Assembly (NCBI GenBank): GCA_041650615.1 | Contig: JBAZKU010000001.1 | Location: 319,277 to 383,276, forward strand | DNA length: 64,000 bases | Direction of reading: 5' to 3' | DNA from: Minisyncoccota bacterium | Lineage (GTDB): Bacteria; Patescibacteriota; Minisyncoccia; Phycocordibacterales; UBA9973 | Shown here: one piece after another, positions 10,846 through 63,586 of the stretch | Layout of the letters: every line of letters starts with the position of its first letter | Numbering within the stretch: position 1 is the first letter of the stretch | The notes under the pieces: generated by a model | What the model saw: the letters and a program-made list of their open reading frames with translations, nothing else | What the model was told of the DNA's origin: nothing | Databases searched by the model: none | Program-made: the position numbers and the translations under genes

Positions 10846-11154
10846 TTATTTTTTAGCTTTCAACTCCTTCCTTTTCTGTGTTGGCTTTTTCTTCGGCAAT
10901 ACATTTACTTTCTTACCTTCTATAGCTTTTTGATGTACCATAAAATTATGCATTGTGTCGGAAAGTTTCGCTCCTTTAGAAACCCAATATTTTATTCTAT
11001 CAACTTCAAACTTTGTTTCCCCCGCTTTTGGATTATAAGTACCGACTATTTCCAAAAATTTTCCGCTTTTGGTGCTGTTTTTTGAATCAGTCAAAACCGC
11101 CCGGAACGATGGGTCATTCTTTCTGCCAATTCTTTGTAATCTTATTTTTAACAT
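10846..11154 (-). CDS. rpsP: 30S ribosomal protein S16
   Basis: MLKIRLQRIGRKNDPSFRAV...GTYNPKAGETKFEVDRIKYWVSKGAKLSDTM matches bS16. Confidence 0.93.
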   Translation of the reverse strand: MLKIRLQRIGRKNDPSFRAVLTDSKNSTKSGKFLEIVGTYNPKAGETKFEVDRIKYWVSKGAKLSDTMHNFMVHQKAIEGKKVNVLPKKKPTQKRKELKAKK

Positions 11155-11216
11155 ATTGCTATACTAGCATAAAAATTTTAAAAGGCAAACACGAAAAATT
11201 ATGTTATATTAAAAGA

Positions 11217-13172
11217 GTGAAAAAGGAAGCAAAAAAAATCCCCAAAAAAATTCAAGGTATTATTTCTATTTCTTCCAAAGGTACTGGATATGTAAAGGTT
11301 CTAGATGAAGAGAGTCGCCTCCTCGGTGACCTGTCGGAGAGGCAGGATGTAGAAATTGATTTTAGACATTTAAATACGGCTCTTCACGGCGATACGGTTG
11401 AAATTATATTACATTCAAAAGGAAAAGGCCGTCTAACAGCTGAAGTATCAAAAATAATTTCGCGAGCAAAGGTTGGTTTTTCTGGAGTTTTGGAAAAAGA
11501 AGACGGCATATTCTTTTTGAAACCGGACGATACAAAAATGTATACGGATATTTTAATATCCCCTATAATGTTAAATGGGGCAAAAGCCGGACAAAAAGTT
11601 TATGCGGAAATAATATCTTGGAAAGACCCACTCAAAGCACCGGAAGGTAAAGTGATAAAAATTTTGGGCAAACCGGGCGACAATAATGCTGAAATGTATG
11701 CTATAGCGCTAGAGAAAGGTTTTGATAGCGACCTGCCAAGAAAAGTGGAAGAAGAAGCACAAAAAATTAAAGCTCTTGGTGTTAAAGATGAAGACTTTGC
11801 GGGAAGACGCGATTTTAGAAAAACTCTTACTTTTACTATTGATCCGGAGAATGCAAAAGATTTTGATGATGCTATTTCATTTAAAGAAATTGAAAAAGAT
11901 AAATATGAAATAGGTATCCACATAGCCGATGTAACACATTATGTAAAAATCGGAAGTGAGCTTGATAAGGAAGCAAAAAAACGAGGAACCTCAGTATATT
12001 TGGTCGACAGAACAATATCAATGCTTCCGGAAATTCTTTCCAACGATTTATGTTCCCTCTTGCCCCATAAAGACAGACTTTCTATGAGTGCGGTTTTTGT
12101 GTTAGATAAAAACGCAAAGGTTTTAAAAGAATGGTATGGACGCACAGTGATAAATTCTAAGAAGAGATTTACTTATGAGGAAGCGGAAGAATCTATTAAA
12201 AAAAGTTCGGCGCCATTTCACAAAGAACTTTCTATTTTGAACAATTTGGCAAAAAAATTAACCAGAGAAAGATTCGCGAATGGTGCAATTTCGCTTGACC
12301 AAGAAGAAGTAAAATTTATTTTGGATAAAAGTGGAATACCGATAAAAGTAATAAAAAAGGAACGAGGTGATTCAAACAGATTGATTGAAGAATTTATGCT
12401 TTTGGCAAATAAAAAAGTCGCGGAAACAATTTCAAAAGGCATAAAAAATGAAAAGGGTGTATTTGTTTATCGTATACATGACAGCCCAAGCAAGGAAAAA
12501 ATGACCGACTTGGCATTTTTCCTAAGAAGTTTAGGACATAAGGTATCCTTGGTGGATGGAATCATTCCAACTTATGAAATAAACAATCTTTTAAAAAGCT
12601 TGTCGGGTAAAAATGAAGAAGACACAGTCCAACGCGCAGTAGTGCGTTCTATGGCAAAAGCTATTTATTCTACAAAAAATATAGGGCATTATGGTTTGGC
12701 TTTTGAATATTATGCCCATTTTACTTCCCCCATCAGACGATATCCAGACATAGTGGTACACAGACTTTTGACTGATTATTTAAAAGGATTAAAAGTAGGC
12801 AAGGAAAAATTAAGTATTTATGAGGAAATTTCCAGAAAATCATCAGAGCGAGAAAAATATGCGGCAGATGCTGAAAGAGCTTCCATTAAATATAAACAGG
12901 TTGAGTATATGTCTTTCCGTGTCGGGAAAATTTTTAGAGGAATTGTGAGTGGAATAACCGAATGGGGCATTTATGTGGAAGAAGAAGAAACAAAGTGCGA
13001 GGGACTCGTGCGTGTGCGGGATATGAAAGATGATTTTTATGTTTTTAATGAAAAAAAATTGGAATTGGTTGGGAAAAAAAGAAAGAAAAAATACCGTTTG
13101 GGTGATCGTGTTAAAATAAAAGTAAAAAATGTTGATTTGGAAAGAAAAACAATAGATTACGTATTGAATTGA
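11217..13172 (+). CDS. rnr: Ribonuclease R (RNB family 3'-5' exoribonuclease, cold-shock + RNB + S1 domains)
   Basis: RNB catalytic region (DDAISF...GIHIADVTHYV; HYGLAFEYYAHFTSPIRRYPD) and C-terminal S1-like/basic tail. Track ORF (11013..) overlaps rpsP on the opposite strand, so the start was moved to in-frame GTG at 11217 (ORF track evidently renders GTG/TTG starts as M); exact start uncertain. Confidence 0.85.
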   Translation: MKKEAKKIPKKIQGIISISSKGTGYVKVLDEESRLLGDLSERQDVEIDFRHLNTALHGDTVEIILHSKGKGRLTAEVSKIISRAKVGFSGVLEKEDGIFFLKPDDTKMYTDILISPIMLNGAKAGQKVYAEIISWKDPLKAPEGKVIKILGKPGDNNAEMYAIALEKGFDSDLPRKVEEEAQKIKALGVKDEDFAGRRDFRKTLTFTIDPENAKDFDDAISFKEIEKDKYEIGIHIADVTHYVKIGSELDKEAKKRGTSVYLVDRTISMLPEILSNDLCSLLPHKDRLSMSAVFVLDKNAKVLKEWYGRTVINSKKRFTYEEAEESIKKSSAPFHKELSILNNLAKKLTRERFANGAISLDQEEVKFILDKSGIPIKVIKKERGDSNRLIEEFMLLANKKVAETISKGIKNEKGVFVYRIHDSPSKEKMTDLAFFLRSLGHKVSLVDGIIPTYEINNLLKSLSGKNEEDTVQRAVVRSMAKAIYSTKNIGHYGLAFEYYAHFTSPIRRYPDIVVHRLLTDYLKGLKVGKEKLSIYEEISRKSSEREKYAADAERASIKYKQVEYMSFRVGKIFRGIVSGITEWGIYVEEEETKCEGLVRVRDMKDDFYVFNEKKLELVGKKRKKKYRLGDRVKIKVKNVDLERKTIDYVLN

Positions 13173-13173
13173 C

Positions 13174-15054
13174 ATGAAGGATATTATCAGACTAAAAATT
13201 AAATTCGGATTTTGGATAACATCTGCCATTATTATTGGTATATTTTTTTCTTCTCTTCTATTAAAAGGCGTTTCGTACAAACAAACAGAATCACAAAAAA
13301 GTGCTGCCATAGTGATAGAATCTTTGGCTTCAGAAGAAACAACGCCTCAATATTTTTATTTCACCAAGGATCCAAGTCAAAAACCTAAGGTCGGGGCAGG
13401 AGCATACCTAGTCGGTGACCTAGATACAGGAGAAATTATTTTGACAAAAAATGAAGATAGGCAATTCCCAATTGCCTCGGTTTCCAAGCTTATGACAGCA
13501 ACTCTTGCAACAGAATTAATGAAACCGGATGATATAGCTTCAGTTTCTAAAAAGGCGCTAAGTACTTATGGAGAAAATGGTAATTTAAAATTGGGAGAAA
13601 AAATAAAAATTTCAGATCTTATTTATCCCCTACTCTTAGAATCAAGCAATGATGCGGGAGAAGTAATAGCTGAATATTTCGGCAGAGATATTTTTATAAA
13701 AAAAATGAATCAAATGGCTCTTAAGTTGGAATTGTCTAAAACCACTTTTGAAGACCCAAGCGGACTTTCTATAAAAAATCAATCAACCGTTTTTGACATG
13801 TTTAAATTAGCGGGATACATAAATCAAAAAAACCCGGGGTTACTTAAAATTACGACAGAAAAAAGTTACTCTAATAAAAAACATATTTGGTTTAGCAATA
13901 ATCAATTTCTCCACGAAGATGGTTATTTGGGCGGGAAAAGCGGATACACAGACCCCGCTCTGCAAACAGTTGTTTCCCTTTTTTCCATTCCCTTGGGAGA
14001 ATCCGGGGCACGTAATATAGCCATTACTCTTTTGCAAAGCAAAGACCGTTACAAGGATGTGGAAAGCATTTTAAAATATTTGAATAAAAATATATATTAT
14101 GGAGGAGAAACCGACGCTAATACTGCCTGGGTAAAAGAAAGAACCGATATCCCTTTTTATGACCAAGATTTTGTCGCTCTTTCTTTTGGCGGGGATATGA
14201 TGCTTGACCGCGGAGTAGAAAGTTCCGTAAATAAAAACTTTAATGGAGATTATTCAATTCTTTTTGAAAAACTTGGAATCTTAAAAAAATCGGATATTGC
14301 TTTTGCTAATCTAGAGGGTCCGGCCTCCGACACGGGTAAAGATATGCGTAATCTATATTCGTTTAGAATGAGCCCTTCCGTTATCCCCGCCTTAAAAGGA
14401 GCGGGATTATCTATAGTTTCGGTTTCCAATAATCATGCCGGAGACTGGGGACGAGATGCCTATAGCGATACATTAGCAAATTTAAAAGAAAATGAAATTT
14501 TATACACAGGAGGAGGAATAAATGAAAGTGAAGCCGAACAACCGATTGTTATTGAAAAATATGGAATGAAAATAGGATATTTAGGGTTTTCGGATGTAGG
14601 ACCAAATTGGATGAAAGCAACAGGGAATGAAGCCGGAGTACTTCTTGCAAGCAATCCTCGCTTTGACGAAATAGTGCAAAATGCTTCCAAACAAGTTGAT
14701 TATTTAGTGGTAACGTTTCATTTTGGAGAAGAATATCAAACCGAACATAATGCCAGACAAGAATATCTGGCGCATAAAGCGATAGATGCCGGCGCGAAAA
14801 TTATAATCGGCACGCATCCACACGTAGTGGAAGATACGGAAGTTTATAAAAATGGTTTTATCGCTTATTCTTTGGGCAACCTTATTTTTGACCAGGGCTT
14901 TTCGCAAAATACCATGCAAGGCATGCTTCTGGAAATTAAATTAAACAGAGATGGAAGTATGTCTATAAAGAAAAATACCGTTAAATTAAACAAATTTTTC
15001 CAGCCAGATAAAATAATTTTAGGTAAAGAGGAAAAAGTGGTTTTTGAGAAATAA
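13174..15054 (+). CDS. Fusion: membrane-anchored S11 D-Ala-D-Ala carboxypeptidase (PBP5-like) + CapA/PgsA-family metallophosphatase domain
   Basis: N-terminal TM; SxxK (SVSKLMT), SxN (ESSNDAG), KSG (KSGYTDP) motifs of DD-carboxypeptidase; C-terminal half has CapA motifs (GGDMMLDRGV, FANLEGP, SVSNNHAGDWG, HFGEEYQ, GTHPHVVED, SLGNLIFDQ). Confidence 0.75.
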   Translation: MKDIIRLKIKFGFWITSAIIIGIFFSSLLLKGVSYKQTESQKSAAIVIESLASEETTPQYFYFTKDPSQKPKVGAGAYLVGDLDTGEIILTKNEDRQFPIASVSKLMTATLATELMKPDDIASVSKKALSTYGENGNLKLGEKIKISDLIYPLLLESSNDAGEVIAEYFGRDIFIKKMNQMALKLELSKTTFEDPSGLSIKNQSTVFDMFKLAGYINQKNPGLLKITTEKSYSNKKHIWFSNNQFLHEDGYLGGKSGYTDPALQTVVSLFSIPLGESGARNIAITLLQSKDRYKDVESILKYLNKNIYYGGETDANTAWVKERTDIPFYDQDFVALSFGGDMMLDRGVESSVNKNFNGDYSILFEKLGILKKSDIAFANLEGPASDTGKDMRNLYSFRMSPSVIPALKGAGLSIVSVSNNHAGDWGRDAYSDTLANLKENEILYTGGGINESEAEQPIVIEKYGMKIGYLGFSDVGPNWMKATGNEAGVLLASNPRFDEIVQNASKQVDYLVVTFHFGEEYQTEHNARQEYLAHKAIDAGAKIIIGTHPHVVEDTEVYKNGFIAYSLGNLIFDQGFSQNTMQGMLLEIKLNRDGSMSIKKNTVKLNKFFQPDKIILGKEEKVVFEK

Positions 15055-15637: not shown

Positions 15638-16018
15638 TTAAGGTTTTTTTACATAAGATTTGGCTAATTTAAATGTCTTGAAGTTATCCCCTATTTTTAT
15701 TTCTTTTAGATAATCCAAAAAATCTTTTGGCAACGGAGAAGGTCCAACCCAGACACTTTTTTGAATCATTATATAGCCGAACTTTATTAGGTGTCTTCGT
15801 AGCCAATCACGTTCTTTCTTTTGCTGTTCCGGGATATCATACATTAAAATTAAGTTCTTAGAAGAATTTTTCTTAAAAGGCGAAGAAAAAGTAATATGAT
15901 AAAAATTTCTTTTTCTGTTTTCTTTTTTTGTTCTATTTTTCCTCCCTTCTAAGAAGATTGGAATACCTAAAGAATTTACTCTTACTCCTTTATAAAATAA
16001 TTTTCTTTTCGAACTCAT
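15638..16018 (-). CDS. Cas2/VapD-superfamily small endoribonuclease-like protein with a basic N-terminal extension (orphan; no Cas1 or CRISPR array in window)
   Basis: LILMYDIPEQQKKERDWLRRHLIKFGYIMIQKSVWVG...DNFKTFKL fits the Cas2/VapD pattern (hhhhYDhx7Rx2Lx3Lx3Gx2hQxSVax; cf. Cas2 LVLVTYDV...RLRKVAKVCQNYGQRVQNSVFEC and VapD LAFDL...LRQELELLGFEWTQGSVYV). ~45-aa Lys/Arg-rich N-terminal extension. Confidence 0.45.
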   Translation of the reverse strand: MSSKRKLFYKGVRVNSLGIPIFLEGRKNRTKKENRKRNFYHITFSSPFKKNSSKNLILMYDIPEQQKKERDWLRRHLIKFGYIMIQKSVWVGPSPLPKDFLDYLKEIKIGDNFKTFKLAKSYVKKP

Positions 16019-16173: not shown

Positions 16174-18411
16174 TTATTTGGCAATTGCGGCGGCTTCGTC
16201 AAGTTTTACTGAGAGAAGTTTTGAAGCACCGTCGTTGCCGATAGTGACACCATATAGGATACCGGCGCGGGACATTGTTTCCCTGTTATGGGTAACAACG
16301 ATGAGCTGTGAATGACGAGAAAGTTTTTCTAACATATCTCCGTATTTACGAGAATTAGCTTCATCAAGTGCTGCATCTGTCTCATCTAGAACCAAAAAGG
16401 GCGGAGGGTTTACTTGGGACATGGCAAAAAGAAGAGCAATAGAGGTAAGAGACCTTTCTCCTCCCGAGAGCGCTTTGAGTTCCTTTACTTTTTTATGCGG
16501 AAGCGAAACATTGATTTCAATACCCTGTTCAGGGACAATTTCCTCCTCATCTTCCATATTTTCTTCCAAATCTCCTTCTTCTCCTTCTTTTTTCTGTTTA
16601 TTTTCAGTTATAACAGAAAGATACCCTGTTCCCCCGCCGAACATTAATGAAAAGAATTTTCCAAATTCCACGTTTATTTTTTCAACGCCTTCTTTAAACT
16701 CCATATCTATTTTCTCTTTCAAGTCGGCTATAAGTTTGCGGAGTGATTCTATGCTTGTTACCAAATCTTCCATTTCTTTCGCTAGAAAATTATCCCTTTC
16801 TGAAACTTCTTCAAATTCTTTAATCAGCTCAGACCCCCCGCCTAGGCCGACATCTTCCAGTTTCATTTTGATGCGTTCAATTTTTTTTCTTAGTTCTTCT
16901 TGCGTATTTCTATCTATTGACCCGTTTATTTCGAAATTTTTATAAGATAAGATTTCACTGCCAATAAGCACTGAACCTTCTTTTATTTCATTTTCATACG
17001 CTTCCACCTCTTTTGACAAATTTTCTTCCTTTACGGCTATAAGCCCCAGAGAAGAGGATAATTCTTGTTGTCTGACTCTAAAATTAAATTTTTCCTTCTC
17101 CCTGGAGTGTAAAATTTCGTTTTCCTGATTTATTTCCTTTTTCAATATTTCTATTTTTTCAATAATTTTCTTTTCTTCGTTTTCAATATTCTGCATTTCA
17201 GCCAAAATCTTTTGTTTTTCTATCTTTAAATTCTCTAATTCTTCGTTTGTAGAAAGTTTTTCTGTTTTATAAGAATAATGATTAAATTTATTTAAAATAT
17301 CTTTTATTCTAAAAAGAATAATTTTAATTTCCGCTGCATTTTCTTCTATTATTGCTTCTTCTATCTCGTTATTAATCTCGTTAAAAATTTCTTTTATTTC
17401 TTCTGGATTTTGGATTGCAATTTCTGGTGCTTTCTTACTTCTGCGCTCTTCCATCTCTATCATTCCTTCTATTCTTCCTAATTTACGCTCTATCTCACTT
17501 CTAATTGCGCGAATTTCACCGATTTTTTTCTCAAATATTTTTAATTCTTTTTCTTTTTCACTTTCTTCCTTTTTATTTATTTCTTCGACGCTGGAAATCT
17601 TCTCTTTAATATTTTCCAATTCCGCAGAAATTTTATTTTTTTCCAAAAATAAGCTTGATTGTTCCTTTTCCAAATAAACACTTTCCTTCTTCAAATATTC
17701 CCTATAAAGAGATAATAAGGTCGCTTGCATTTCTTTTGCTTTTTCAAATTTATCTACCTGTTTCTTAAGGAAATTCAAATGGGGGGCATTTTCCCGGCGT
17801 AAAAGCGAGACTTCCTTCATATTATTGGTTGTTTTTTCCAATTTGCGTCCGGCTTCTTTAATTTTGTATTGATAAATTTTAAGGCCGAGAGCATCTTCCA
17901 CCATTTCCCTTCTGTCTTTTGGCGACGCATTCAAAATCCTATCCGCTTCGCCTTGTGAAATAATATGATGCCCAGAAGAACCGATATTAACCGACGATAA
18001 AAGATTGTTGATATCTTTTAATCTTACTTCCGAACCGTTTAAAATATATTTATTCAATCCGTCAGAATAAACTTCGCGGGAAATTGAGATGATATCGTAA
18101 TTCAGATTAATATCTTCGCCTCCCTCATTAGAGAGCTTGAAAACCTTATCAGAATTATCAAAATATATGGTAACGGTCGCGCGCGAGCTTTTTGGCAGAT
18201 TTTTGGATCCTTTAAAAATTAAATCGGAACCTAAGCTTCCCCGCATTGATTTCATTGATTGTTCGCCCAAAACAAAACGAAGCGCTTCTACCACATTTGA
18301 CTTACCAGACCCGTTGGGGCCCACAATAGAAACAATGGGATTTTGGAATTCCAAAATTGTTTTTTTATAAAAAGATTTAAAGCCGTTTATTTCAAGATTT
18401 TTAAGTCGCAT
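16174..18411 (-). CDS. smc: Compact SMC-family chromosome segregation ATPase (745 aa)
   Basis: N-terminus MRLKNLEINGFKSFYKKTILEFQNPIVSIVGPNGSGKSNVVEALRFVLGEQS (Walker A) and C-terminus LSGGERSLTSIALLFAMSQ...LVLDETDAALDEAN (signature + Walker B) with Glu/Lys-rich coiled coil between; no obvious canonical hinge domain. Confidence 0.85.
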   Translation of the reverse strand: MRLKNLEINGFKSFYKKTILEFQNPIVSIVGPNGSGKSNVVEALRFVLGEQSMKSMRGSLGSDLIFKGSKNLPKSSRATVTIYFDNSDKVFKLSNEGGEDINLNYDIISISREVYSDGLNKYILNGSEVRLKDINNLLSSVNIGSSGHHIISQGEADRILNASPKDRREMVEDALGLKIYQYKIKEAGRKLEKTTNNMKEVSLLRRENAPHLNFLKKQVDKFEKAKEMQATLLSLYREYLKKESVYLEKEQSSLFLEKNKISAELENIKEKISSVEEINKKEESEKEKELKIFEKKIGEIRAIRSEIERKLGRIEGMIEMEERRSKKAPEIAIQNPEEIKEIFNEINNEIEEAIIEENAAEIKIILFRIKDILNKFNHYSYKTEKLSTNEELENLKIEKQKILAEMQNIENEEKKIIEKIEILKKEINQENEILHSREKEKFNFRVRQQELSSSLGLIAVKEENLSKEVEAYENEIKEGSVLIGSEILSYKNFEINGSIDRNTQEELRKKIERIKMKLEDVGLGGGSELIKEFEEVSERDNFLAKEMEDLVTSIESLRKLIADLKEKIDMEFKEGVEKINVEFGKFFSLMFGGGTGYLSVITENKQKKEGEEGDLEENMEDEEEIVPEQGIEINVSLPHKKVKELKALSGGERSLTSIALLFAMSQVNPPPFLVLDETDAALDEANSRKYGDMLEKLSRHSQLIVVTHNRETMSRAGILYGVTIGNDGASKLLSVKLDEAAAIAK

Positions 18412-18412
18412 A

Positions 18413-19108
18413 TTATTCCATCCAATTTTTTATTCTTAATGCCATTTCGGCTGCTTTCTGTTCCGCTTCCTGTTTTGACTTACCTTTGCCTTCGGCAACC
18501 AAACTGGAACCAAAAAAGATACCTACAGTAAAGTGCTTATCATGATCAGGGCCTGACTCGTGCAAAACTTTATAAGCGGGTGTAACTCCGACGAATTCTT
18601 GCACTTTTTCCTGCACTAAACTTTTTGCGTCACGCCAAAGCTTCTTAGAAACAATTTCTTCCGTATGAGGCAAAAGAGTGGCAATTACAAATTTATTTAC
18701 AACATTATATCCTTGGTCTAAATAAACCGCTCCGATATATGCTTCAAAAGTATTAGCTAAAATATATTGCCTTGCCTTGCCATTATCTTTCCCTTCGCCT
18801 TTGGATAAAAGTAAATAATCATTCATTCCGATTTTTAGGGCAACTTCGGAAATAATAATGGCGTTTACTAAAGCTGAACGAATAGCGGTTAATTCTCCTT
18901 CCGTGTAGTTCGGATATTTTTTATAAAGAAAGTCAGTGACGATAAGTTCAAGCACGGCATCACCTAAGAATTCCAAGCGTTCATTGTGTGAAAGACGAGA
19001 ACCCGGGTTTTCATTTATATAAGAACGGTGAATAAAAGCCTGCTTGAGCAGATTTTTATCCTTAAAAACTATTTTTGTATTTTTTTCAAAATCCGAAAAA
19101 TTAATCAT
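18413..19108 (-). CDS. rnc: Ribonuclease III
   Basis: RNase III signature ERLEFLGDAVLELIV, C-terminal dsRBD. Confidence 0.92.
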   Translation of the reverse strand: MINFSDFEKNTKIVFKDKNLLKQAFIHRSYINENPGSRLSHNERLEFLGDAVLELIVTDFLYKKYPNYTEGELTAIRSALVNAIIISEVALKIGMNDYLLLSKGEGKDNGKARQYILANTFEAYIGAVYLDQGYNVVNKFVIATLLPHTEEIVSKKLWRDAKSLVQEKVQEFVGVTPAYKVLHESGPDHDKHFTVGIFFGSSLVAEGKGKSKQEAEQKAAEMALRIKNWME

Positions 19109-19109
19109 T

Positions 19110-20030
19110 TTATTTTTTTGAAATTATCTCAATAGCTTTGGTAATAAGCGGAATAATATCGTTATAAATACGAAGCTCCGGCAACTCTTTAAGCTGAAAC
19201 CAGCGAGCGTTATCCAAGCCCCCGGAGGCTCCGAGCTGGAGTTTTTGGTACTTGCTTTCTGCTAAGAAATATATAACTTTCTTTAAAGTCTTACCATTTT
19301 CCGGATGGGTCGCTACGTATTCGTTTTCTCCGATTTTTTCTCTTATGGAAATATCCAGGCCGATTTCTTCTTTTATTTTTTTAATTGTACTTTCTTCCAC
19401 ATTTTCCCCATTTTCTATTCTGCCTTTGGATAGAGTCCAATAACCAAAAACATCATGCACTAGCGCAAAAAAAATATCACTTCCTTTTTTTGCATAGACC
19501 AACGCTCCTCCCAGCTTTTCAATCGGCAATTTTGTAATATCCAAAGGTTCTTCCGCTTTTTTCTTTTTACTTATTTGTTCCTTGCCAGGTTCGCCGATTT
19601 CTTTATAGACTGCGCCTAATACACCATTTACGAATTTGCCGGAGTTTTCCCCGCCGAAAGTTTTAGCTAATTCTATCGCCTCATTAATGGCTACTTTCGG
19701 AGGCACTTGACTCCTGTCACCGAAAAGAAGCTCAGTCAATCCAATTCTTAAAATATTTCTATCTACTATGGAAATTTTATCTAATGGCCAATCGGGCGCG
19801 GCCTTTTTTATTATTTCATCAACTACTTTACTTTTTTTTAATACTTCTTCGGTTAAGGAAAAGACAAAAACATCGTCCTCCAGTCCAGGAGCGAATTCTT
19901 TAAGATTCCTATTGAGAGCTTCTTTTGTTTTTTCACTATTCCAAACTTTGCCTTTTTCTTCGGCAGTCATAAAATCCCACTCAAAAAGCGTTTGAAGTAC
20001 TATTGATCTTGAAAGGTGCCTATTTGCCAT
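19110..20030 (-). CDS. nusB: Fusion protein: NusB antitermination factor (N-terminal) + Nudix hydrolase (C-terminal)
   Basis: [29 protein letters not shown] nearly identical to E. coli Nus[30 protein letters not shown]; C-terminal ~150 aa carries a Nudix box [23 protein letters not shown] (Gx5Ex7[RK]EuxEExGu). Confidence 0.8.
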
Positions 20031-26241: not shown

Positions 26242-26952
26242 TTAAAACTGGTTAAATCTTAAATCGCCTTGATAAGCCGGGCGGATGTCCGGCATACCAT
26301 ATTTAATAACCATTAATCTTTCAAGCCCCGGACCAAAAGCAAAACCTTGATATTTTTCGGGGTCAATTCCGCAGTTTTTCAAAACATTCGGATGCACCAT
26401 CCCCGCTCCGCCCATTTCCAGCCACTTGCCGTTAAATTTCAAATCAAATTCAATGGACGGTTCGGTAAAAGGAAAAAAACTCGGACGAAATCTGAGATCT
26501 GTATCATCACCCAGTATTTTTTTATAAAAATGAGAAAGAACTCCTTTTAAATGAGCCATATTGACGTCTTCTCCGATCATTAACCCTTCAATTTGATAAA
26601 ATTGCATTTCGTGGGTCGCATCCGTCGCCTCATTGCGAAAACATTTCCCTGGAACAACAATAGCAAAAGGCGGTTTACCGCCGGACTTAATAAGATTTTC
26701 CATATAGCGAATCTGCACGGAAGAAGTATGGGTTCTTAGAACTTTTCCCTCTTCTCCTTTGATATAAAAAGTGTCTTGCATTTCACGAGCCGGATGATCT
26801 TTGGGAACATTCAGTGCATCAAAATTATGCCAAATATCTTCAAGTTCCGGGCCAGTTGCTACTTCAAAACCCAAGTCGGTAAAAATTTTTACGGCTTGAT
26901 TTATGATTATTGAAAGTGGATGTTCTCTGCCTTTGTTATTGTCTTTATCCAT
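26242..26952 (-). CDS. pheS: Phenylalanyl-tRNA synthetase alpha subunit (catalytic core only)
   Basis: Class II motifs (HPAREMQDTFYI; FRNEATDATHEMQFYQIEGL; GGAGMVHPNVL). Confidence 0.9.
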   Translation of the reverse strand: MDKDNNKGREHPLSIIINQAVKIFTDLGFEVATGPELEDIWHNFDALNVPKDHPAREMQDTFYIKGEEGKVLRTHTSSVQIRYMENLIKSGGKPPFAIVVPGKCFRNEATDATHEMQFYQIEGLMIGEDVNMAHLKGVLSHFYKKILGDDTDLRFRPSFFPFTEPSIEFDLKFNGKWLEMGGAGMVHPNVLKNCGIDPEKYQGFAFGPGLERLMVIKYGMPDIRPAYQGDLRFNQF

Positions 26953-61419: not shown

Positions 61420-63249
61420 CTATTGAATAATTATCGCATACATTTTTTCTTTCGTTTTGGGACCAACAAGGCCGTCAACAGCTAAGCCATTGGCTTGTTG
61501 CCATATCTTTATAGCAGTAAGTGTCTTGGGACCCAAAATACCATCAATTACAAGATTGAGATTTAATTGAATATTCAAAAATCTTTGTAAATCTTTCACC
61601 ACCTCACCTCTACTGCCATTGCGAAGAGTGGCGGTACCGAAATTGTAAGTTATGGTAGTTATGACAGGATTTCCTAAACATGATTGACCAGTAGTAGTAC
61701 TAAATAAGGCACCGGTTGTACAACCAGAATAGTCAGGAACTACGACAGGTGGAATGTATGTTCCTCCTACGCTACCATTTGAACTGCAAACTGAAGTAGG
61801 AATGTTAGCACTTGCTTCATCGGTTACATTACCAAGAGCATCTTTTATCACTCCGTACCTGGTGTAACGCGTAGCGCAAGTTAAATCTGTTTCAGTCCAG
61901 GAAGGAGTAGCTTGATAGGTATAGGGTCCACCTGAAGTGGTAGCAAAGCCATAGGGAGTGGTATGCAGCCCTACCCCGGCATCGGTCCCAGTAGAAAGAG
62001 TCCAGGCAATGGAAGTTTGAGTAACACTGGAATAGGCCATGGTGGGAGGATTGGGGGTGGGAGGAGTGGAATCGGAAGGTGGCGGTGCCGTAAATATCCA
62101 TCCAGTGTTGTGTCCGCCGTCGATTGAATTTGCTCCCGCATAGAATGTGGCTCCACCAGTGGCATTTGAATAATCAATGTTTAAATAATCACTACTAATT
62201 GTTCCAGTTGGAGCGCTTAAGGTCCAACCAGCTGTATCTGTGCCATTTAAGGTAATCATACTTTCTGCAGTGCCTGTAGTGGTAAAAGAACTTACTGTTT
62301 GAGTGGTGTCATCAGTAAATTGGACAGTTACTCCGGGGTCTGCTTTGAAATCATTGAAGGTGTTAGAGCCTTGAACAATAACCGGACCGCTTCCCGCTCC
62401 GGCAAACCAAATATTGTTGTAAGTTTTCCCTAAATCTGCCCCTTCGCTGTCGGAAAAAAGGAATGTTTTAGAACTTGAAGTCGTATCGGTAAATTTAATC
62501 GTGGAAGTTTCGGAATTAATACTAACCGTTCCACCGTCCCATTCATCTATATACCAAGGAGCGCCATTAGGAGAGTTATCGTCATTTCCGGCTACCGTCC
62601 AAGTTCCGGAACCCATTGCAACTGTAGACAGAAAGGTTGTATCGGAAAAGAAATAAAAATCATTGGCTGTTACGTCATGGTCATTAGTATCAAAAGTGCC
62701 ATACCATTGAGAAAATGATTTCGCAACAACTAAATTGTCTTGAAGTGTCCAACTACCACTGCCAAATAAAGTTAATTCATTAATAGTGGCACCGGCAGTT
62801 GTTATTGTTTTACCTTCATTTACCGCTTCTAAACTTAAAGAAGTATTATTACCAAAAGTTATTCCGCTTTCTAGGGTTAAAGAACCGACGATACTTAGAC
62901 TAGTGGAAGTGCCACTATTTATTGAATAATTATGGCCGGAGCTAGCGGCAAAATCATTACAAACTGCCCCAGTGGTTAAAGTTATGATTCCTCCACTACC
63001 AAAACCGGAATTTGCATCAATAAAACAATCATCCGAATCTATCGGAAGATTTTCTGCAGCGGGAGCTCCTCCTGTTACAGTCGCCCAGTGTTCAGTAGCA
63101 TTAGACCAATCACCAGTTCCACCTACCCAGTATCTATCTGCCGCTTCTGCAGTATTTGCCCAGCCCGTAAGACTTACCCCGATTGTAAAAATAAACACCG
63201 AAAAAATTGGAATTAATTTTATAAATTTATTTAATGTTATCCCTTTCAT
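61420..63249 (-). CDS. Secreted surface protein, paralogous C-terminus (GFSTTTGQSC motif + peptidoglycan-binding domain); start set at internal Met (MKGITLNKF...) because the track ORF overlaps a tRNA
   Basis: Signal peptide IPIFSVFIFTIGVSLTGWANTAEA; C-terminal GSRGEVVKDLQRFLNIQLNLNLVIDGILGPKT PG-binding domain; Pro/Thr-rich and FN3-like middle. Confidence 0.6.
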   Translation of the reverse strand: MKGITLNKFIKLIPIFSVFIFTIGVSLTGWANTAEAADRYWVGGTGDWSNATEHWATVTGGAPAAENLPIDSDDCFIDANSGFGSGGIITLTTGAVCNDFAASSGHNYSINSGTSTSLSIVGSLTLESGITFGNNTSLSLEAVNEGKTITTAGATINELTLFGSGSWTLQDNLVVAKSFSQWYGTFDTNDHDVTANDFYFFSDTTFLSTVAMGSGTWTVAGNDDNSPNGAPWYIDEWDGGTVSINSETSTIKFTDTTSSSKTFLFSDSEGADLGKTYNNIWFAGAGSGPVIVQGSNTFNDFKADPGVTVQFTDDTTQTVSSFTTTGTAESMITLNGTDTAGWTLSAPTGTISSDYLNIDYSNATGGATFYAGANSIDGGHNTGWIFTAPPPSDSTPPTPNPPTMAYSSVTQTSIAWTLSTGTDAGVGLHTTPYGFATTSGGPYTYQATPSWTETDLTCATRYTRYGVIKDALGNVTDEASANIPTSVCSSNGSVGGTYIPPVVVPDYSGCTTGALFSTTTGQSCLGNPVITTITYNFGTATLRNGSRGEVVKDLQRFLNIQLNLNLVIDGILGPKTLTAIKIWQQANGLAVDGLVGPKTKEKMYAIIIQ

Positions 63250-63291
63250 TGCAATTATTATATCAAAAAAAATCAAATGAGTTAAATAAGG

Positions 63292-63380
63292 CGGAGCCGG
63301 GCGGATTCGAACCGCCGAGGGGTTTTGAAGCCCCTGCCTCTTTAGCAAAGAGGTACGTTAGACCGCTCTGACACGGCTCC
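63292..63380 (-). tRNA. tRNA-Ser (anticodon GCT), type II
   Basis: Minus-strand read GGAGCCG...anticodon stem CCTCT/AGAGG loop TTGCTAA, long variable arm CAGGGGCTTCAAAACCCCTC, T-arm GGCGG-TTCGAAT-CCGCC, acceptor CGGCTCC, discriminator G. D-stem pairing is not obvious by eye. Confidence 0.65.
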
Positions 63381-63496
63381 TTTTTATCTAAGTACTCTAG
63401 CATATTCTGCATATTTTTCCATGCGTTTTTTTATTTTTTCTGATATACTTTTTGCATAAATTTGGAGAGATGGATGAGATGAAAAAGTGAATTTAT

Positions 63497-63586
63497 GGAG
63501 AGATGGGTGAGTGGTTTAAACCAACAGTTTACTAAACTGTCGTCCCCTCAAAAGGACCGCGAGTTCGAATCTCGCTCTCTCCGCCA
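63497..63586 (+). tRNA. Type II (Ser-like) tRNA with apparent anticodon ACT (loop TTACTAA); CCA encoded
   Basis: GGAGAGA-TG-GGT-GAGTGGTTTAA-ACC-A-ACAGT-TTACTAA-ACTGT-variable arm(18 nt)-GCGAG-TTCGAAT-CTCGC-TCTCTCC-G-CCA; all stems Watson-Crick; architecture same as E. coli tRNA-Ser. Confidence 0.6.

What the first reader, a model, noticed from the sequence alone, without database searches (positions are those of the whole stretch)
19110..20030. NusB fused to a Nudix hydrolase domain
The N-terminal half is near-identical to NusB in its signature region ([14 protein letters not shown]...KFVNGVL). The C-terminal ~150 aa carries a Nudix box. NusB is normally a standalone ~140-aa protein. The fusion could couple antitermination or rRNA transcription to nucleotide or RNA 5'-cap (NAD/ppGpp-type) hydrolysis. 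It lies in a conserved smc-rnc-nusB neighbourhood.
Basis: partly seen in the sequence, partly recalled or inferred. Interest (0 to 1): 0.5.

Follow-up and report, generated by a model that had tools for sequence, protein, structure and literature searches.

The report
NusB fused to a Nudix domain
This is a real gene, conserved across several lineages of the ultra-small Patescibacteria (CPR), that joins the rRNA antitermination factor NusB to an Ap4A-hydrolase/RppH-like Nudix domain and sits next to RNase III; in this genome the Nudix catalytic motif has lost two key residues yet the domain is still under strong selection.

Summary
Window 19110-20030 (-) is one uninterrupted 306-aa ORF: NusB (residues 1-146; Pfam 117 bits, TIGR01951 above cutoff), a Lys-rich flexible linker (147-169), and a Nudix-fold domain (170-306; Pfam 47.6 bits; AF2 model superposes on Aquifex Ap4A hydrolase, TM 0.90).

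It is not an assembly artefact. Hundreds of independent assemblies encode the same fusion, including 80 of the 80 best species genomes. Named lineages include Nomura-, Kaiser-, Komeilibacteria, Microgenomates and CPR2. The order rpmF - nusB·nudix - rnc (- smc) is almost always kept. Databases call it just "NusB", and I found no paper on it.

The "Nudix box" claim needs correcting. Here the box reads G-x5-E-x7-KK-I-K-EE-I-G-L, so the Arg and the first catalytic Glu of REUXEE are both Lys. K218 sits at the position of E. coli RppH E53, whose E53A mutant is inactive. About 62% of 401 retrieved fusions keep a canonical box, and losses are scattered over many lineages. The Nudix half is nevertheless under purifying selection as strong as the NusB half.

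Most likely reading: a functional NusB that tethers a Nudix module to the nascent rRNA leader. The module is probably catalytic in most relatives and probably binding-only or weakly active here. Moderately interesting; a new variant of known kinds.

The parts
19110..20030 (-). Complete nusB-nudix fusion CDS (306 aa plus stop codon)
   Evidence: ORF list and sequence. An identical protein, P0001, occurs in NCBI/JGI/ENA assemblies on a 598,563-bp contig.
19593..20030 (-). NusB domain, residues 1-146 (seven helices)
   Evidence: Pfam NusB 117 bits and TIGR01951 118.6 bits, above cutoff. PDB NusB hits have E down to 3e-19. AF2 gives helices 4-145 at high pLDDT. The boxA U8-stacking Phe (Aa/Ec F122) equals F133, invariant family-wide. 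Aa E81 equals D90, and Ec D118 equals N129.
19524..19592 (-). Lys-rich linker, residues 147-169 ([25 protein letters not shown])
   Evidence: pLDDT is below 50 for residues 148-161 and pTM is 0.56, so the domain orientation is undefined. The sequence is nevertheless well conserved in the close clade, e.g. the GEPGK and KKKK runs. dN/dS is about 0.22.
19113..19523 (-). Nudix-fold domain, residues 170-306
   Evidence: Pfam NUDIX 47.6 bits. The AF2 model shows an alpha/beta/alpha fold. The best Foldseek match is 3i7u, Aquifex Ap4A hydrolase (TM 0.90, rmsd 1.9 A), followed by Thermus Ndx1, other Ap4A hydrolases and BdRppH. dN/dS is about 0.10.
19356..19424 (-). Degenerate Nudix box, residues 203-225: [23 protein letters not shown]
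   Evidence: Aligned to the canonical boxes of Ap4A hydrolases and of fusion homologues. It lies on the model's loop-helix-loop, with helix 211-223.
19377..19382 (-). K217-K218 codons (AAA AAA) replacing the Arg-Glu of REUXEE
   Evidence: Codons read directly. Relatives often have AGA GAA, so each change is a single G-to-A transition. K218 is motif position 16, the position of EcRppH E53 (motif 38-60; E53A is inactive, PMC6061791).
20057..20284 (-). rpmF (ribosomal protein L32), immediately upstream on the same strand
   Evidence: Pfam Ribosomal_L32p. Immediately upstream in 77 of 80 species genomes and in CPR2, Microgenomates and Komeilibacteria.
18413..19108 (-). rnc (RNase III), starting 1 nt after the fusion gene's stop codon
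   Evidence: Pfam Ribonuclease_3 plus dsrm. Immediately downstream in 78 of 80 species genomes. It overlaps or abuts the fusion gene in CPR2 and Komeilibacteria and lies 171 bp downstream in Microgenomates.
16174..18411 (-). Short SMC-like ATPase (745 aa), the last gene of the conserved run
   Evidence: Pfam SMC_N spans residues 3-730. Found downstream in 69 of 80 genomes.

Best explanation
The gene encodes a bona fide NusB whose C-terminus carries, through a flexible Lys-rich linker, a Nudix-fold domain of the Ap(n)A-hydrolase/RppH type. It is the standard NusB of a large part of the Patescibacteria (CPR) and is probably co-transcribed with L32 and RNase III. SHOWN: the two-domain architecture, its breadth and age, the conserved synteny, retention of the NusB boxA/NusE-pocket residues, the Nudix fold, the loss of R and E in this protein's box, and strong purifying selection on both halves. 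INFERRED: the NusB half binds the boxA element of nascent rRNA leaders together with S10, as in other bacteria, and so holds the Nudix module next to the 5' region of the pre-rRNA and the transcribing polymerase. In the majority of lineages the box is canonical, and there the module most likely hydrolyses a pyrophosphate linkage at or near the RNA 5' end (5'-triphosphate or Np4-type cap) or Ap(n)A-type dinucleotides. That would feed into leader processing, which RNase III, encoded by the next gene, carries out. In this genome's subclade the motif is KKIKEE. The Lys at the position of RppH E53 should abolish or greatly weaken metal-dependent catalysis. Here the domain therefore most likely acts as a phosphate, nucleotide or RNA-5'-end binding or scaffolding module of the antitermination and processing complex, in the way CF Im25 and SuhB use enzyme folds, rather than as an efficient hydrolase.
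For: Architecture. It is not an artefact: all 120 best hits (77-100% identity) and 120 further profile hits carry PF01029 plus PF00293 at about 300 aa, from NCBI, JGI, ENA and Logan assemblies. There are about 52 full-length fusion clusters at 50% identity, reaching down to about 33% identity. All 80 best species genomes encode residues 1 to about 305. The fusion also occurs in Microgenomates, CPR2, Komeilibacteria and Kaiserbacteria. Synteny: L32 upstream in 77 of 80 and rnc downstream in 78 of 80, with the same order in three distant lineages. NusB competence: TIGR01951 equivalog above cutoff; F133 equals the U8-stacking F122 and is invariant across the 51-sequence diverse alignment; D90 equals Aa E81; N129 equals the affinity-raising nusB101 change D118N. 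Nudix type: the closest sequences and folds are Ap4A/Ap6A hydrolases, then RppH and Dcp2, and 'NEYVA...KKVIYFLAE' aligns to the same enzymes. Box state: KK in this protein. In the close clade 136 of 233 are canonical RE..EE and 33 begin with KK; pooled, 248 of 401 keep all three Glu; the degenerate state is scattered, with at least about 64 Fitch changes on a crude tree. Selection is retained after the loss: the Nudix/NusB divergence ratio is 1.05 in the KK subclade against 1.31 in the RE clade, and dN/dS is 0.086 for NusB and 0.100 for Nudix, including the KK-KK pair window vs L001 at 0.077. No compensating acidic residue appears; instead there are E-to-K changes at 260 and 263 and E-to-G at 267. 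Consequence of the Glu loss: RppH E53A is inactive in vitro and in vivo (PMC6061791). Precedents for non-catalytic enzyme folds in RNA machines: CF Im25 binds but does not hydrolyse Ap4A (PMC2425470), and SuhB is a subunit of the rRNA antitermination complex (PMC6614801).
Against: There are no biochemical data for any member. The window has no rRNA operon and no boxA-like match above chance, so boxA targeting in this organism is assumed rather than shown. The model gives no defined contact between the two domains (pTM 0.56, disordered linker), so 'tethering' is all that can be said. E209, E221 and E222 remain and R-to-K is conservative, so some Nudix enzymes with atypical boxes might still be active and residual or altered catalysis cannot be excluded. 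dS is saturated (above 1), so the dN/dS values are rough. The KK subclade is probably one or a few evolutionary events, so its co-varying basic substitutions are weak evidence. Operon co-transcription is inferred only from the 1-nt and 26-nt gaps; the promoter and terminator scans were at chance.
Confidence: 0.5

Rival explanations
1. Active tethered RNA 5'-end enzyme. In this protein too, the Nudix domain is a working pyrophosphohydrolase or decapping enzyme (RppH-like, Np4A- or NAD-cap removal) delivered by NusB to nascent rRNA. Lys217/Lys218 are tolerated, or they substitute for a metal ion.
For: The fold and closest relatives are Ap(n)A hydrolases and RppH. E209, E221 and E222 are retained. 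The domain is under strong purifying selection. Most orthologues are canonical. The adjacent rnc gene fits an RNA-processing role. RppH is known to remove both triphosphates and Np4 caps (abstracts of PMC8833179 and PMC7044304).
Against: K218 replaces the Glu equivalent to RppH E53, whose Ala mutant is inactive. By my own residue count this is also the position mutated in the human Ap4A hydrolase E58A crystal form listed. No compensating acidic residue co-varies with the change. Many other lineages have lost two or three of the Glu residues, which shows the family can dispense with the canonical catalytic set. The NCBIfam RppH model scores only 27.8 bits against a cutoff of 118.
Confidence: 0.25
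2. Fusion of convenience. The Nudix domain is an ordinary housekeeping nucleotide-pool enzyme (Ap4A or NTP clean-up) that became fused to NusB during genome streamlining, with no mechanistic link to antitermination. In the window's clade it is a slowly decaying or repurposed remnant.
For: CPR genomes are small and gene-dense (1-nt intergenic gaps). The linker is predicted to be disordered, with no fixed interdomain contact. The catalytic motif is dispensable in many lineages.
Against: The fusion is retained across lineages down to about 33% identity, with no clear case of re-separation; the 'Nudix-only' hits look like truncated gene calls. The Nudix half shows no relaxation of constraint after motif loss (ratio 1.05; dN/dS about 0.1), which does not fit a decaying remnant. 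Parts of the linker are conserved in sequence.
Confidence: 0.15
3. Assembly or annotation artefact: two adjacent genes (nusB and a nudix gene) wrongly joined by a sequencing error at the junction.
For: None found.
Against: The ORF is continuous. An identical or near-identical full-length protein occurs in many independent assemblies from four data sources. The linker is conserved at the protein level and evolves under purifying selection.
Confidence: 0.01

Closest known systems
NusB (TIGR01951 / PF01029), the boxA-binding antitermination factor that pairs with NusE/S10
   Same: The N-terminal 146 residues score as an equivalog. The signature helices and the boxA-U8 pocket Phe (F133 = F122) are conserved, and the fold is all-helical.
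   Different: It carries a 160-residue C-terminal extension (linker plus Nudix domain). It has native Asn at the nusB101 position (N129) and Asp instead of Glu at the Aa E81 position.
Asymmetric Ap4A/Ap6A hydrolases of the Nudix superfamily (Aquifex aq_158 3i7u, Thermus Ndx1, human NUDT2) and the related RNA pyrophosphohydrolase RppH
   Same: These are the best sequence and structure matches for residues 170-306 (TM 0.90 to 3i7u; 24-26% identity). Shared features are the 'W-T-x-x-K-G' strand before the box and 'NEYVA...V.YFLAE' after it.
   Different: The box has KK instead of RE. The domain is fused to NusB rather than free-standing. The conserved Tyr is 13 rather than about 17 residues after the box. 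The RppH equivalog model is far below its cutoff.
CF Im25 (NUDT21), the Nudix-fold subunit of the mammalian pre-mRNA 3'-processing factor
   Same: A Nudix fold embedded in an RNA-processing machine, with catalytic glutamates missing from the box. It binds Ap4A and ATP without hydrolysing them (PMC2425470). This is a functional analogy for the KK-type proteins.
   Different: CF Im25 is eukaryotic, lacks two box glutamates (replaced by Leu and Ile), forms a dimer, and is not fused to a transcription factor. No homology beyond the superfamily level is claimed.
SuhB in the E. coli rRNA antitermination complex (rrnTAC)
   Same: An enzyme (phosphatase) fold that serves as an accessory subunit, working with NusB/E on the rRNA leader and helping NusB/E integrate into the complex (PMC6614801). 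This is a possible functional analogue of a NusB-tethered Nudix domain.
   Different: SuhB has an unrelated fold (inositol monophosphatase), is a separate polypeptide, and binds NusA AR2. Whether these CPR organisms have SuhB was not tested.
RsmB/Sun 16S rRNA methyltransferase (N-terminal NusB-like domain plus catalytic domain)
   Same: A precedent for a NusB-fold domain fused N-terminally to an RNA-directed enzyme. The RsmB models hit residues 35-163 weakly.
   Different: In RsmB the partner is a SAM methyltransferase and the NusB-like domain is not the cell's NusB. Here the NusB half scores as the true NusB equivalog.
NrtR-type regulators (Nudix domain as ligand sensor fused to a DNA-binding domain)
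   Same: A Nudix domain used in transcription control. The NrtR Nudix domain (3gz8) is among the structural hits.
   Different: NrtR pairs the Nudix domain with a winged-helix DNA-binding domain and senses ADP-ribose (my own knowledge). It has no NusB and no RNA context.

Membership tests
NusB (TIGR01951 / PF01029) | Profile match above the curated threshold | tested here: met
   PF01029 117.2 bits against 23.1; TIGR01951 118.6 bits against 88.35.
NusB (TIGR01951 / PF01029) | All-helical NusB fold | tested here: met
   The AF2 model has seven helices over residues 4-145 at high pLDDT. phmmer hits solved NusB structures with E down to 3e-19. The Foldseek top-50 list was filled by Nudix hits, so NusB fold matches were not displayed.
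NusB (TIGR01951 / PF01029) | BoxA-U8 pocket residues (Aa/Ec F122 stacking; Aa E81) | tested here: met
   F133 aligns to F122 and is invariant in the diverse 51-sequence alignment. D90 aligns to E81 as a conservative change and is at least 90% conserved.
NusB (TIGR01951 / PF01029) | Heterodimer with NusE/S10 and binding of rRNA-leader boxA | not testable with these tools
   The window has no S10 gene and no rRNA leader. A boxA consensus search gave 3 hits against 11.5 expected. F16 aligns to Aquifex Y16, which I take to be the equivalent of Ec Y18.
Nudix hydrolase superfamily (PF00293) | Profile match above threshold and the alpha/beta/alpha Nudix fold | tested here: met
   PF00293 47.6 bits against 21.1. 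TM 0.90 and rmsd 1.9 A to 3i7u.
Nudix hydrolase superfamily (PF00293) | Nudix box GX5EX7REUXEEXGU with the catalytic Glu residues | tested here: not met
   G203, E209, I219, E221, E222, G224 and L225 are present, but R is K217 and E is K218. 248 of 401 homologous fusions keep all three REUXEE glutamates.
Nudix hydrolase superfamily (PF00293) | Mg/Mn-dependent pyrophosphohydrolase activity | not testable with these tools
   This needs an enzyme assay. RppH E53A, mutated at the position equivalent to K218, is inactive (PMC6061791).
Ap(n)A hydrolase subgroup of Nudix | Stacking Tyr/Phe about 17 residues downstream of the box (as stated in PMC2425470) | tested here: inconclusive
   The family-conserved Y238 lies 13 residues after L225. 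It aligns with a Tyr of the Aquifex Ap4A hydrolase. The spacing differs from the rule quoted.
RNA pyrophosphohydrolase RppH (NCBIfam NF001936 and related) | Equivalog profile above cutoff | tested here: not met
   The best RppH model scores 27.8 bits against a cutoff of 118 and covers only residues 183-226.
Non-catalytic Nudix-fold modules (CF Im25-like) | Loss of box glutamates combined with ligand binding without hydrolysis | tested here: inconclusive
   One of the four box Glu residues plus the Arg is lost here, against two Glu in CF Im25. Binding and turnover cannot be tested here. Retained purifying selection is compatible with this reading but does not prove it.

The most novel reading that the evidence does not exclude
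In Patescibacteria the rRNA antitermination complex has a built-in 5'-end or dinucleotide module. The NusB-tethered Nudix domain reads, and in canonical-box lineages removes, the 5'-triphosphate or Np4A-type cap of the nascent pre-rRNA, or senses Ap4A-type alarmones. This would couple rRNA elongation and RNase III-dependent leader processing to 5'-end chemistry or to stress-nucleotide levels. In lineages like this one it has become a non-catalytic sensor or scaffold, functionally taking the place that SuhB holds in E. coli.
Probability: 0.2. Interest if true: 0.75.

Novelty: new variant of a known kind. Interest (0 to 1): 0.5.

Why it matters
NusB is a core, well-studied transcription factor that is a small single-domain protein in model bacteria. 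Here, a large and poorly understood radiation of bacteria has it permanently joined to a Nudix module and linked to RNase III. That points to a direct physical connection between rRNA antitermination and RNA 5'-end or dinucleotide-polyphosphate chemistry, which has not been described in the literature I could search. The family is also a natural experiment. Closely related proteins differ only in whether the catalytic Arg-Glu is present, so catalytic and non-catalytic roles of a Nudix domain can be separated with simple assays and back-mutations. On the practical side, thousands of database entries named only 'NusB' hide a second domain.

Tried and rejected
(1) A regex scan for the Nudix box was too crude, so I replaced it with alignment-based column extraction.

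(2) My first impression from the 50%-identity representatives was that most of the family is degenerate (10 of 52 canonical). That sample was biased: it takes one sequence per divergent cluster, ranked by similarity to a KK query. A search seeded with a canonical member gave 100 of 118 canonical, and the pooled figure is 62%.

(3) Split-gene ancestors: the short 'Nudix-only' representatives start inside the linker or the first strand and look like truncated gene calls, so they are not evidence for free-standing neighbours.

(4) Taxonomy through cluster look-ups gave almost no names. I took the names from homolog searches and genome titles instead. Many genome titles read 'uncultured Candidatus Saccharibacteria', which I treated as a generic submitter label.

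(5) The boxA consensus search in the window gave 3 hits against 11.5 expected. There is no rRNA in the window. The promoter and terminator scans were at chance.

(6) The AFDB Foldseek library was unavailable.

(7) The UPGMA root state for the box was disregarded, because UPGMA places fast-evolving degenerate lineages at the base.

(8) The compensatory-residue hypothesis, that a new acidic residue rescues catalysis in the KK clade, was not supported.

(9) Four literature searches for any description of the fusion found none.
Full report
1. THE OBSERVATION.

Window 19110-20030 on the minus strand is a single ATG-to-stop ORF of 306 aa with no interruption at the proposed junction. Pfam finds NusB at residues 7-143 (117.2 bits, E 8.5e-34) and NUDIX at residues 195-289 (47.6 bits, E 2.2e-12). 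Both are well above their gathering cutoffs. NCBIfam's nusB equivalog TIGR01951 scores 118.6 bits against a cutoff of 88.35. Against solved structures, the N-terminal half matches the NusB proteins of Thermotoga, Aquifex, E. coli and Mycobacterium (E down to 3e-19). The C-terminal half matches Nudix enzymes, led by Aquifex Ap4A hydrolase 3i7u.

2. IT IS NOT AN ARTEFACT, AND IT IS NOT RARE.

The identical protein is present in NCBI, JGI, ENA and Logan assemblies on a 598,563-bp contig. The 120 best database hits (77-100% identity), from many independent assemblies, all carry both Pfam domains at about 300 aa. A profile search added more than 100 further full-length fusions at 59-79% identity.

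An exhaustive search of 1.84 billion cluster representatives found 146 clusters at E <= 1e-30. About 52 of these are full-length fusions, reaching down to about 33% identity.

In the species-representative genome collection, the 80 best of at least 590 hits all encode residues 1 to about 305. Their record titles include Nomura-, Kaiser-, Vogel-, Lloyd-, Adler- and Taylorbacteria and Parcubacteria/Paceibacterota. A search seeded with a distant member shows the same fusion in Candidatus Microgenomates, candidate division CPR2 and Komeilibacteria.

Every source names these proteins simply 'NusB'. Four full-text searches found no paper that mentions the fusion. Related proteins of 140-160 aa that are NusB only also exist. 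Their organisms could not be named.

3. CONTEXT.

The gene sits in a tight minus-strand run:
- rpmF (L32, 20057-20284), then a 26-nt gap;
- nusB·nudix, then a 1-nt gap;
- rnc (RNase III, 18413-19108), then a 1-nt gap;
- a short SMC-like ATPase (16174-18411).

In the 80 species genomes, L32 lies immediately upstream in 77 and RNase III immediately downstream on the same strand in 78. SMC follows in 69. The same order is found in CPR2 (yceD-rpmF-fusion-rnc-smc), in Microgenomates and in Komeilibacteria. In CPR2 and Komeilibacteria the fusion gene overlaps the start of rnc.

Promoter and terminator scans were at chance level. Co-transcription is therefore inferred from spacing only. The window holds no second NusB or Nudix paralogue, no rRNA gene and no boxA-like match above chance.

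4. ANATOMY.

The AlphaFold2 model (mean pLDDT 84) has two confidently folded domains. Seven helices span residues 4-145, and an alpha/beta/alpha sandwich spans residues 170-305. They are joined by a low-confidence linker (residues 148-161, pLDDT below 50). The pTM is 0.56, so the relative orientation of the domains is undefined.

The linker is Lys-rich (SKKKK). It is well conserved in the close clade and evolves somewhat faster than the domains (dN/dS about 0.22).

Foldseek places the C-terminal domain next to these structures:
- Aquifex Ap4A hydrolase (TM 0.90, rmsd 1.9 A, 26% identity);
- Thermus Ndx1 Ap6A hydrolase (TM 0.84);
- the C. elegans, human and Chlamydia Ap4A hydrolases;
- the mycobacterial MutT1/Rv2985 diadenosine polyphosphatase;
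- BdRppH.

5. THE NusB HALF LOOKS FULLY COMPETENT.

I used the Aquifex NusB-NusE-BoxA structure paper (PMC3177189) together with tool alignments to the Aquifex and E. coli chains.
- The Phe that stacks on BoxA U8 (F122) is F133 here. It is one of only three invariant columns in the 51-sequence diverse alignment.
- Aquifex E81, which reads U8 and bridges to NusE H15, is D90 here and is at least 90% conserved. Thermotoga NusB also has Asp at this position.
- E. coli D118, where the nusB101 D118N change enhances boxA affinity, is natively Asn (N129) here.
- F16 aligns to Aquifex Y16, which I take to be the equivalent of the nusB5 residue Y18 in E. coli.

6. THE NUDIX BOX IS NOT CANONICAL HERE.

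The motif reads G203-RIENG-E209-NVEESTI-K217-K218-I219-K-E221-E222-I-G224-L225. The consensus is GX5EX7REUXEEXGU. The Arg and the first Glu of REUXEE are therefore both Lys (codons AAA AAA).

K218 is motif position 16. In E. coli RppH (motif residues 38-60) that position is E53, and RppH-E53A is catalytically inactive in vitro and fails to complement in vivo (PMC6061791). By my own residue count it is also the position mutated in the human Ap4A hydrolase E58A crystal form listed.

Across the family the picture is mixed.
- In the close clade (233 proteins at 59% identity or more), 136 are canonical RE..EE. The commonest variants are KKIKEE (26, the window's subclade at 78-100% identity, plus a few related forms), RKIKEE (18) and KRIKEE (17).
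- Among one-per-cluster representatives ranked by similarity to the query, only 10 of 52 keep all three Glu and 7 keep none.
- In a sample seeded with a canonical distant member, 100 of 118 keep all three.
- Pooled, 248 of 401 (62%) keep all three and 267 of 401 have 'RE'.

All of these samples are biased in known directions. The degenerate state is scattered. Fitch parsimony needs at least about 64 changes on a crude UPGMA tree, and that count is inflated by tree error.

I take the canonical box to be ancestral, because it is the signature of the superfamily. Repeated exact re-invention of it is implausible, so the pattern means many independent losses. In relatives 'RE' is often AGA GAA. Each Lys is then one G-to-A transition away, which is an easy change in a 36.6% GC genome. 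Extreme cases exist in which Pfam no longer recognises the Nudix half at all (P0444 and P0464).

7. THE DOMAIN IS STILL UNDER SELECTION.

If the Nudix half were decaying after the loss, it should diverge faster than the NusB half. It does not. With the box columns excluded, the ratio of Nudix to NusB p-distance is 1.05 within the KK subclade and 1.31 within the canonical clade. At matched NusB distance the KK Nudix halves are, if anything, more similar to each other (0.141 against 0.178, and 0.162 against 0.207).

Codon-level dN/dS is about 0.086 for NusB and 0.100 for Nudix. For the KK-KK pair of the window and L001 it is 0.077. dS is above 1, so these values are rough.

No other column gains an acidic residue in step with the KK change. 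The best co-varying columns are E-to-K at 260 and 263 and E-to-G at 267, so the domain becomes more basic. This is probably a single evolutionary event and is weak evidence.

8. HOW IT MOST LIKELY WORKS.

Shown: the architecture, its conservation, the synteny, the NusB determinants, the Nudix fold type, the motif state and the selective constraint.

Inferred from established NusB biology: NusB/S10 bind boxA in the rRNA leader, and boxC forms part of an RNase III site (PMC6614801). By that logic the NusB half anchors the protein on the nascent pre-rRNA leader. The flexible basic linker then keeps the Nudix module near the RNA 5' region and the polymerase.

In canonical-box lineages the module is most likely an RppH/Ap(n)A-hydrolase-type pyrophosphohydrolase. 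It would act on the 5'-triphosphate or an Np4-type cap, or on dinucleoside polyphosphates. RppH is known to do both (abstracts). This would fit with leader processing by the co-encoded RNase III.

In this genome the KK box argues against efficient metal-dependent catalysis, yet the domain is conserved. The best reading is a phosphate, nucleotide or 5'-end binding or scaffolding role. Two precedents exist:
- CF Im25, a Nudix fold that lacks two box glutamates and binds Ap4A (Kd 2.4 uM) without hydrolysing it, inside an RNA-processing complex (PMC2425470);
- SuhB, a phosphatase fold that serves as an architectural subunit of the rRNA antitermination complex and helps NusB/E load (PMC6614801).

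I put about 0.5 on this composite explanation, about 0.25 on 'still an active tethered enzyme here', about 0.15 on 'fusion of convenience with no coupling', and about 0.01 on artefact.

9. COMPARISON WITH KNOWN FAMILIES.

It is a member of the NusB family, since every testable defining feature is met. It belongs to the Nudix fold superfamily by profile and by fold, but it fails the sequence definition of the Nudix box at two positions, one of them a catalytic Glu. It should therefore not be filed as a Nudix hydrolase without an assay. It is not an RppH equivalog (27.8 bits against a cutoff of 118). Its nearest enzymes are Ap(n)A hydrolases. The diagnostic downstream Tyr is present (Y238, family-conserved) but lies 13 rather than about 17 residues after the box, so that test is inconclusive. 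RsmB is a known precedent for a NusB-like domain fused to an RNA enzyme, but there the NusB-like domain is not the cell's NusB.

10. NOVELTY AND VERDICT.

Both domains are well known, and the fused sequences have been in public databases since the first CPR genomes. The architecture itself appears to be undescribed and uncharacterised, as do its spread across several CPR lineages, its fixed link to L32 and RNase III, and the recurrent loss of the catalytic motif under continued selection. I rate it a new variant of a known kind, with interest 0.5. It is not startling, but it yields a concrete and cheaply testable hypothesis that links rRNA antitermination to RNA 5'-end or dinucleotide chemistry in a major uncultured radiation.

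Noticed in passing
window 16174-18411 (-): The SMC-like ATPase downstream of rnc is only 745 aa. Pfam SMC_N spans residues 3-730 with no hinge-domain hit. The gene at the same position is 1033 aa in CPR2 (L081) and 818 aa in Komeilibacteria (L083).
   Followed up: partly
window 13174-15054 (+): A 626-aa protein combines a D-Ala-D-Ala carboxypeptidase domain (Peptidase_S11, residues 69-268) with a PGA_cap capsule-synthesis domain (residues 336-574). This is another domain fusion.
   Followed up: no
window 15638-16018 (-): A small 126-aa protein hits PaaX_M (the Cas2-like domain) and CRISPR_Cas2. No CRISPR array or other cas genes were looked for.
   Followed up: no
window 63290-63586: ARAGORN calls three tRNA-Ser genes in the window. 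One has the unusual anticodon ACT (63497-63586, +). Another (63290-63380, -) was not reported by Rfam at the gathering threshold and overlaps the end of ORF 61420-63348.
   Followed up: no
window 26242-26952 (-): The PheRS alpha subunit is only 236 aa, consisting of the catalytic core domain alone (Pfam tRNA-synt_2d covers residues 4-234).
   Followed up: no
P0250, P0259, P0261 (related NusB proteins, not in the window): Some NusB relatives carry a C-terminal extension of 130-200 aa, rich in Lys, Glu and Asn and of low complexity, where the Nudix domain would be. These may be extremely degenerate or replaced Nudix modules.
   Followed up: no
P0444, P0464 (fusion homologues; box TEMTKI / TELSKL): These are full-length homologues of the fusion whose C-terminal half no longer registers as Pfam NUDIX. 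Database architecture counts therefore underestimate the family.
   Followed up: partly
window 19236-19253 (-), residues 260-265: In the KK subclade, extra acidic-to-basic or neutral changes (E-to-K at 260 and 263, E-to-G at 267) co-vary with the loss of the box Arg-Glu, making the Nudix domain more basic.
   Followed up: partly
window 11013-13172 (+): An RNase R/II-type exoribonuclease (RNB plus CSD plus S1 domains, 719 aa) lies about 6 kb from the nusB-nudix-rnc cluster. This is a second RNA-processing gene in the neighbourhood, and its linkage was not examined.
   Followed up: no
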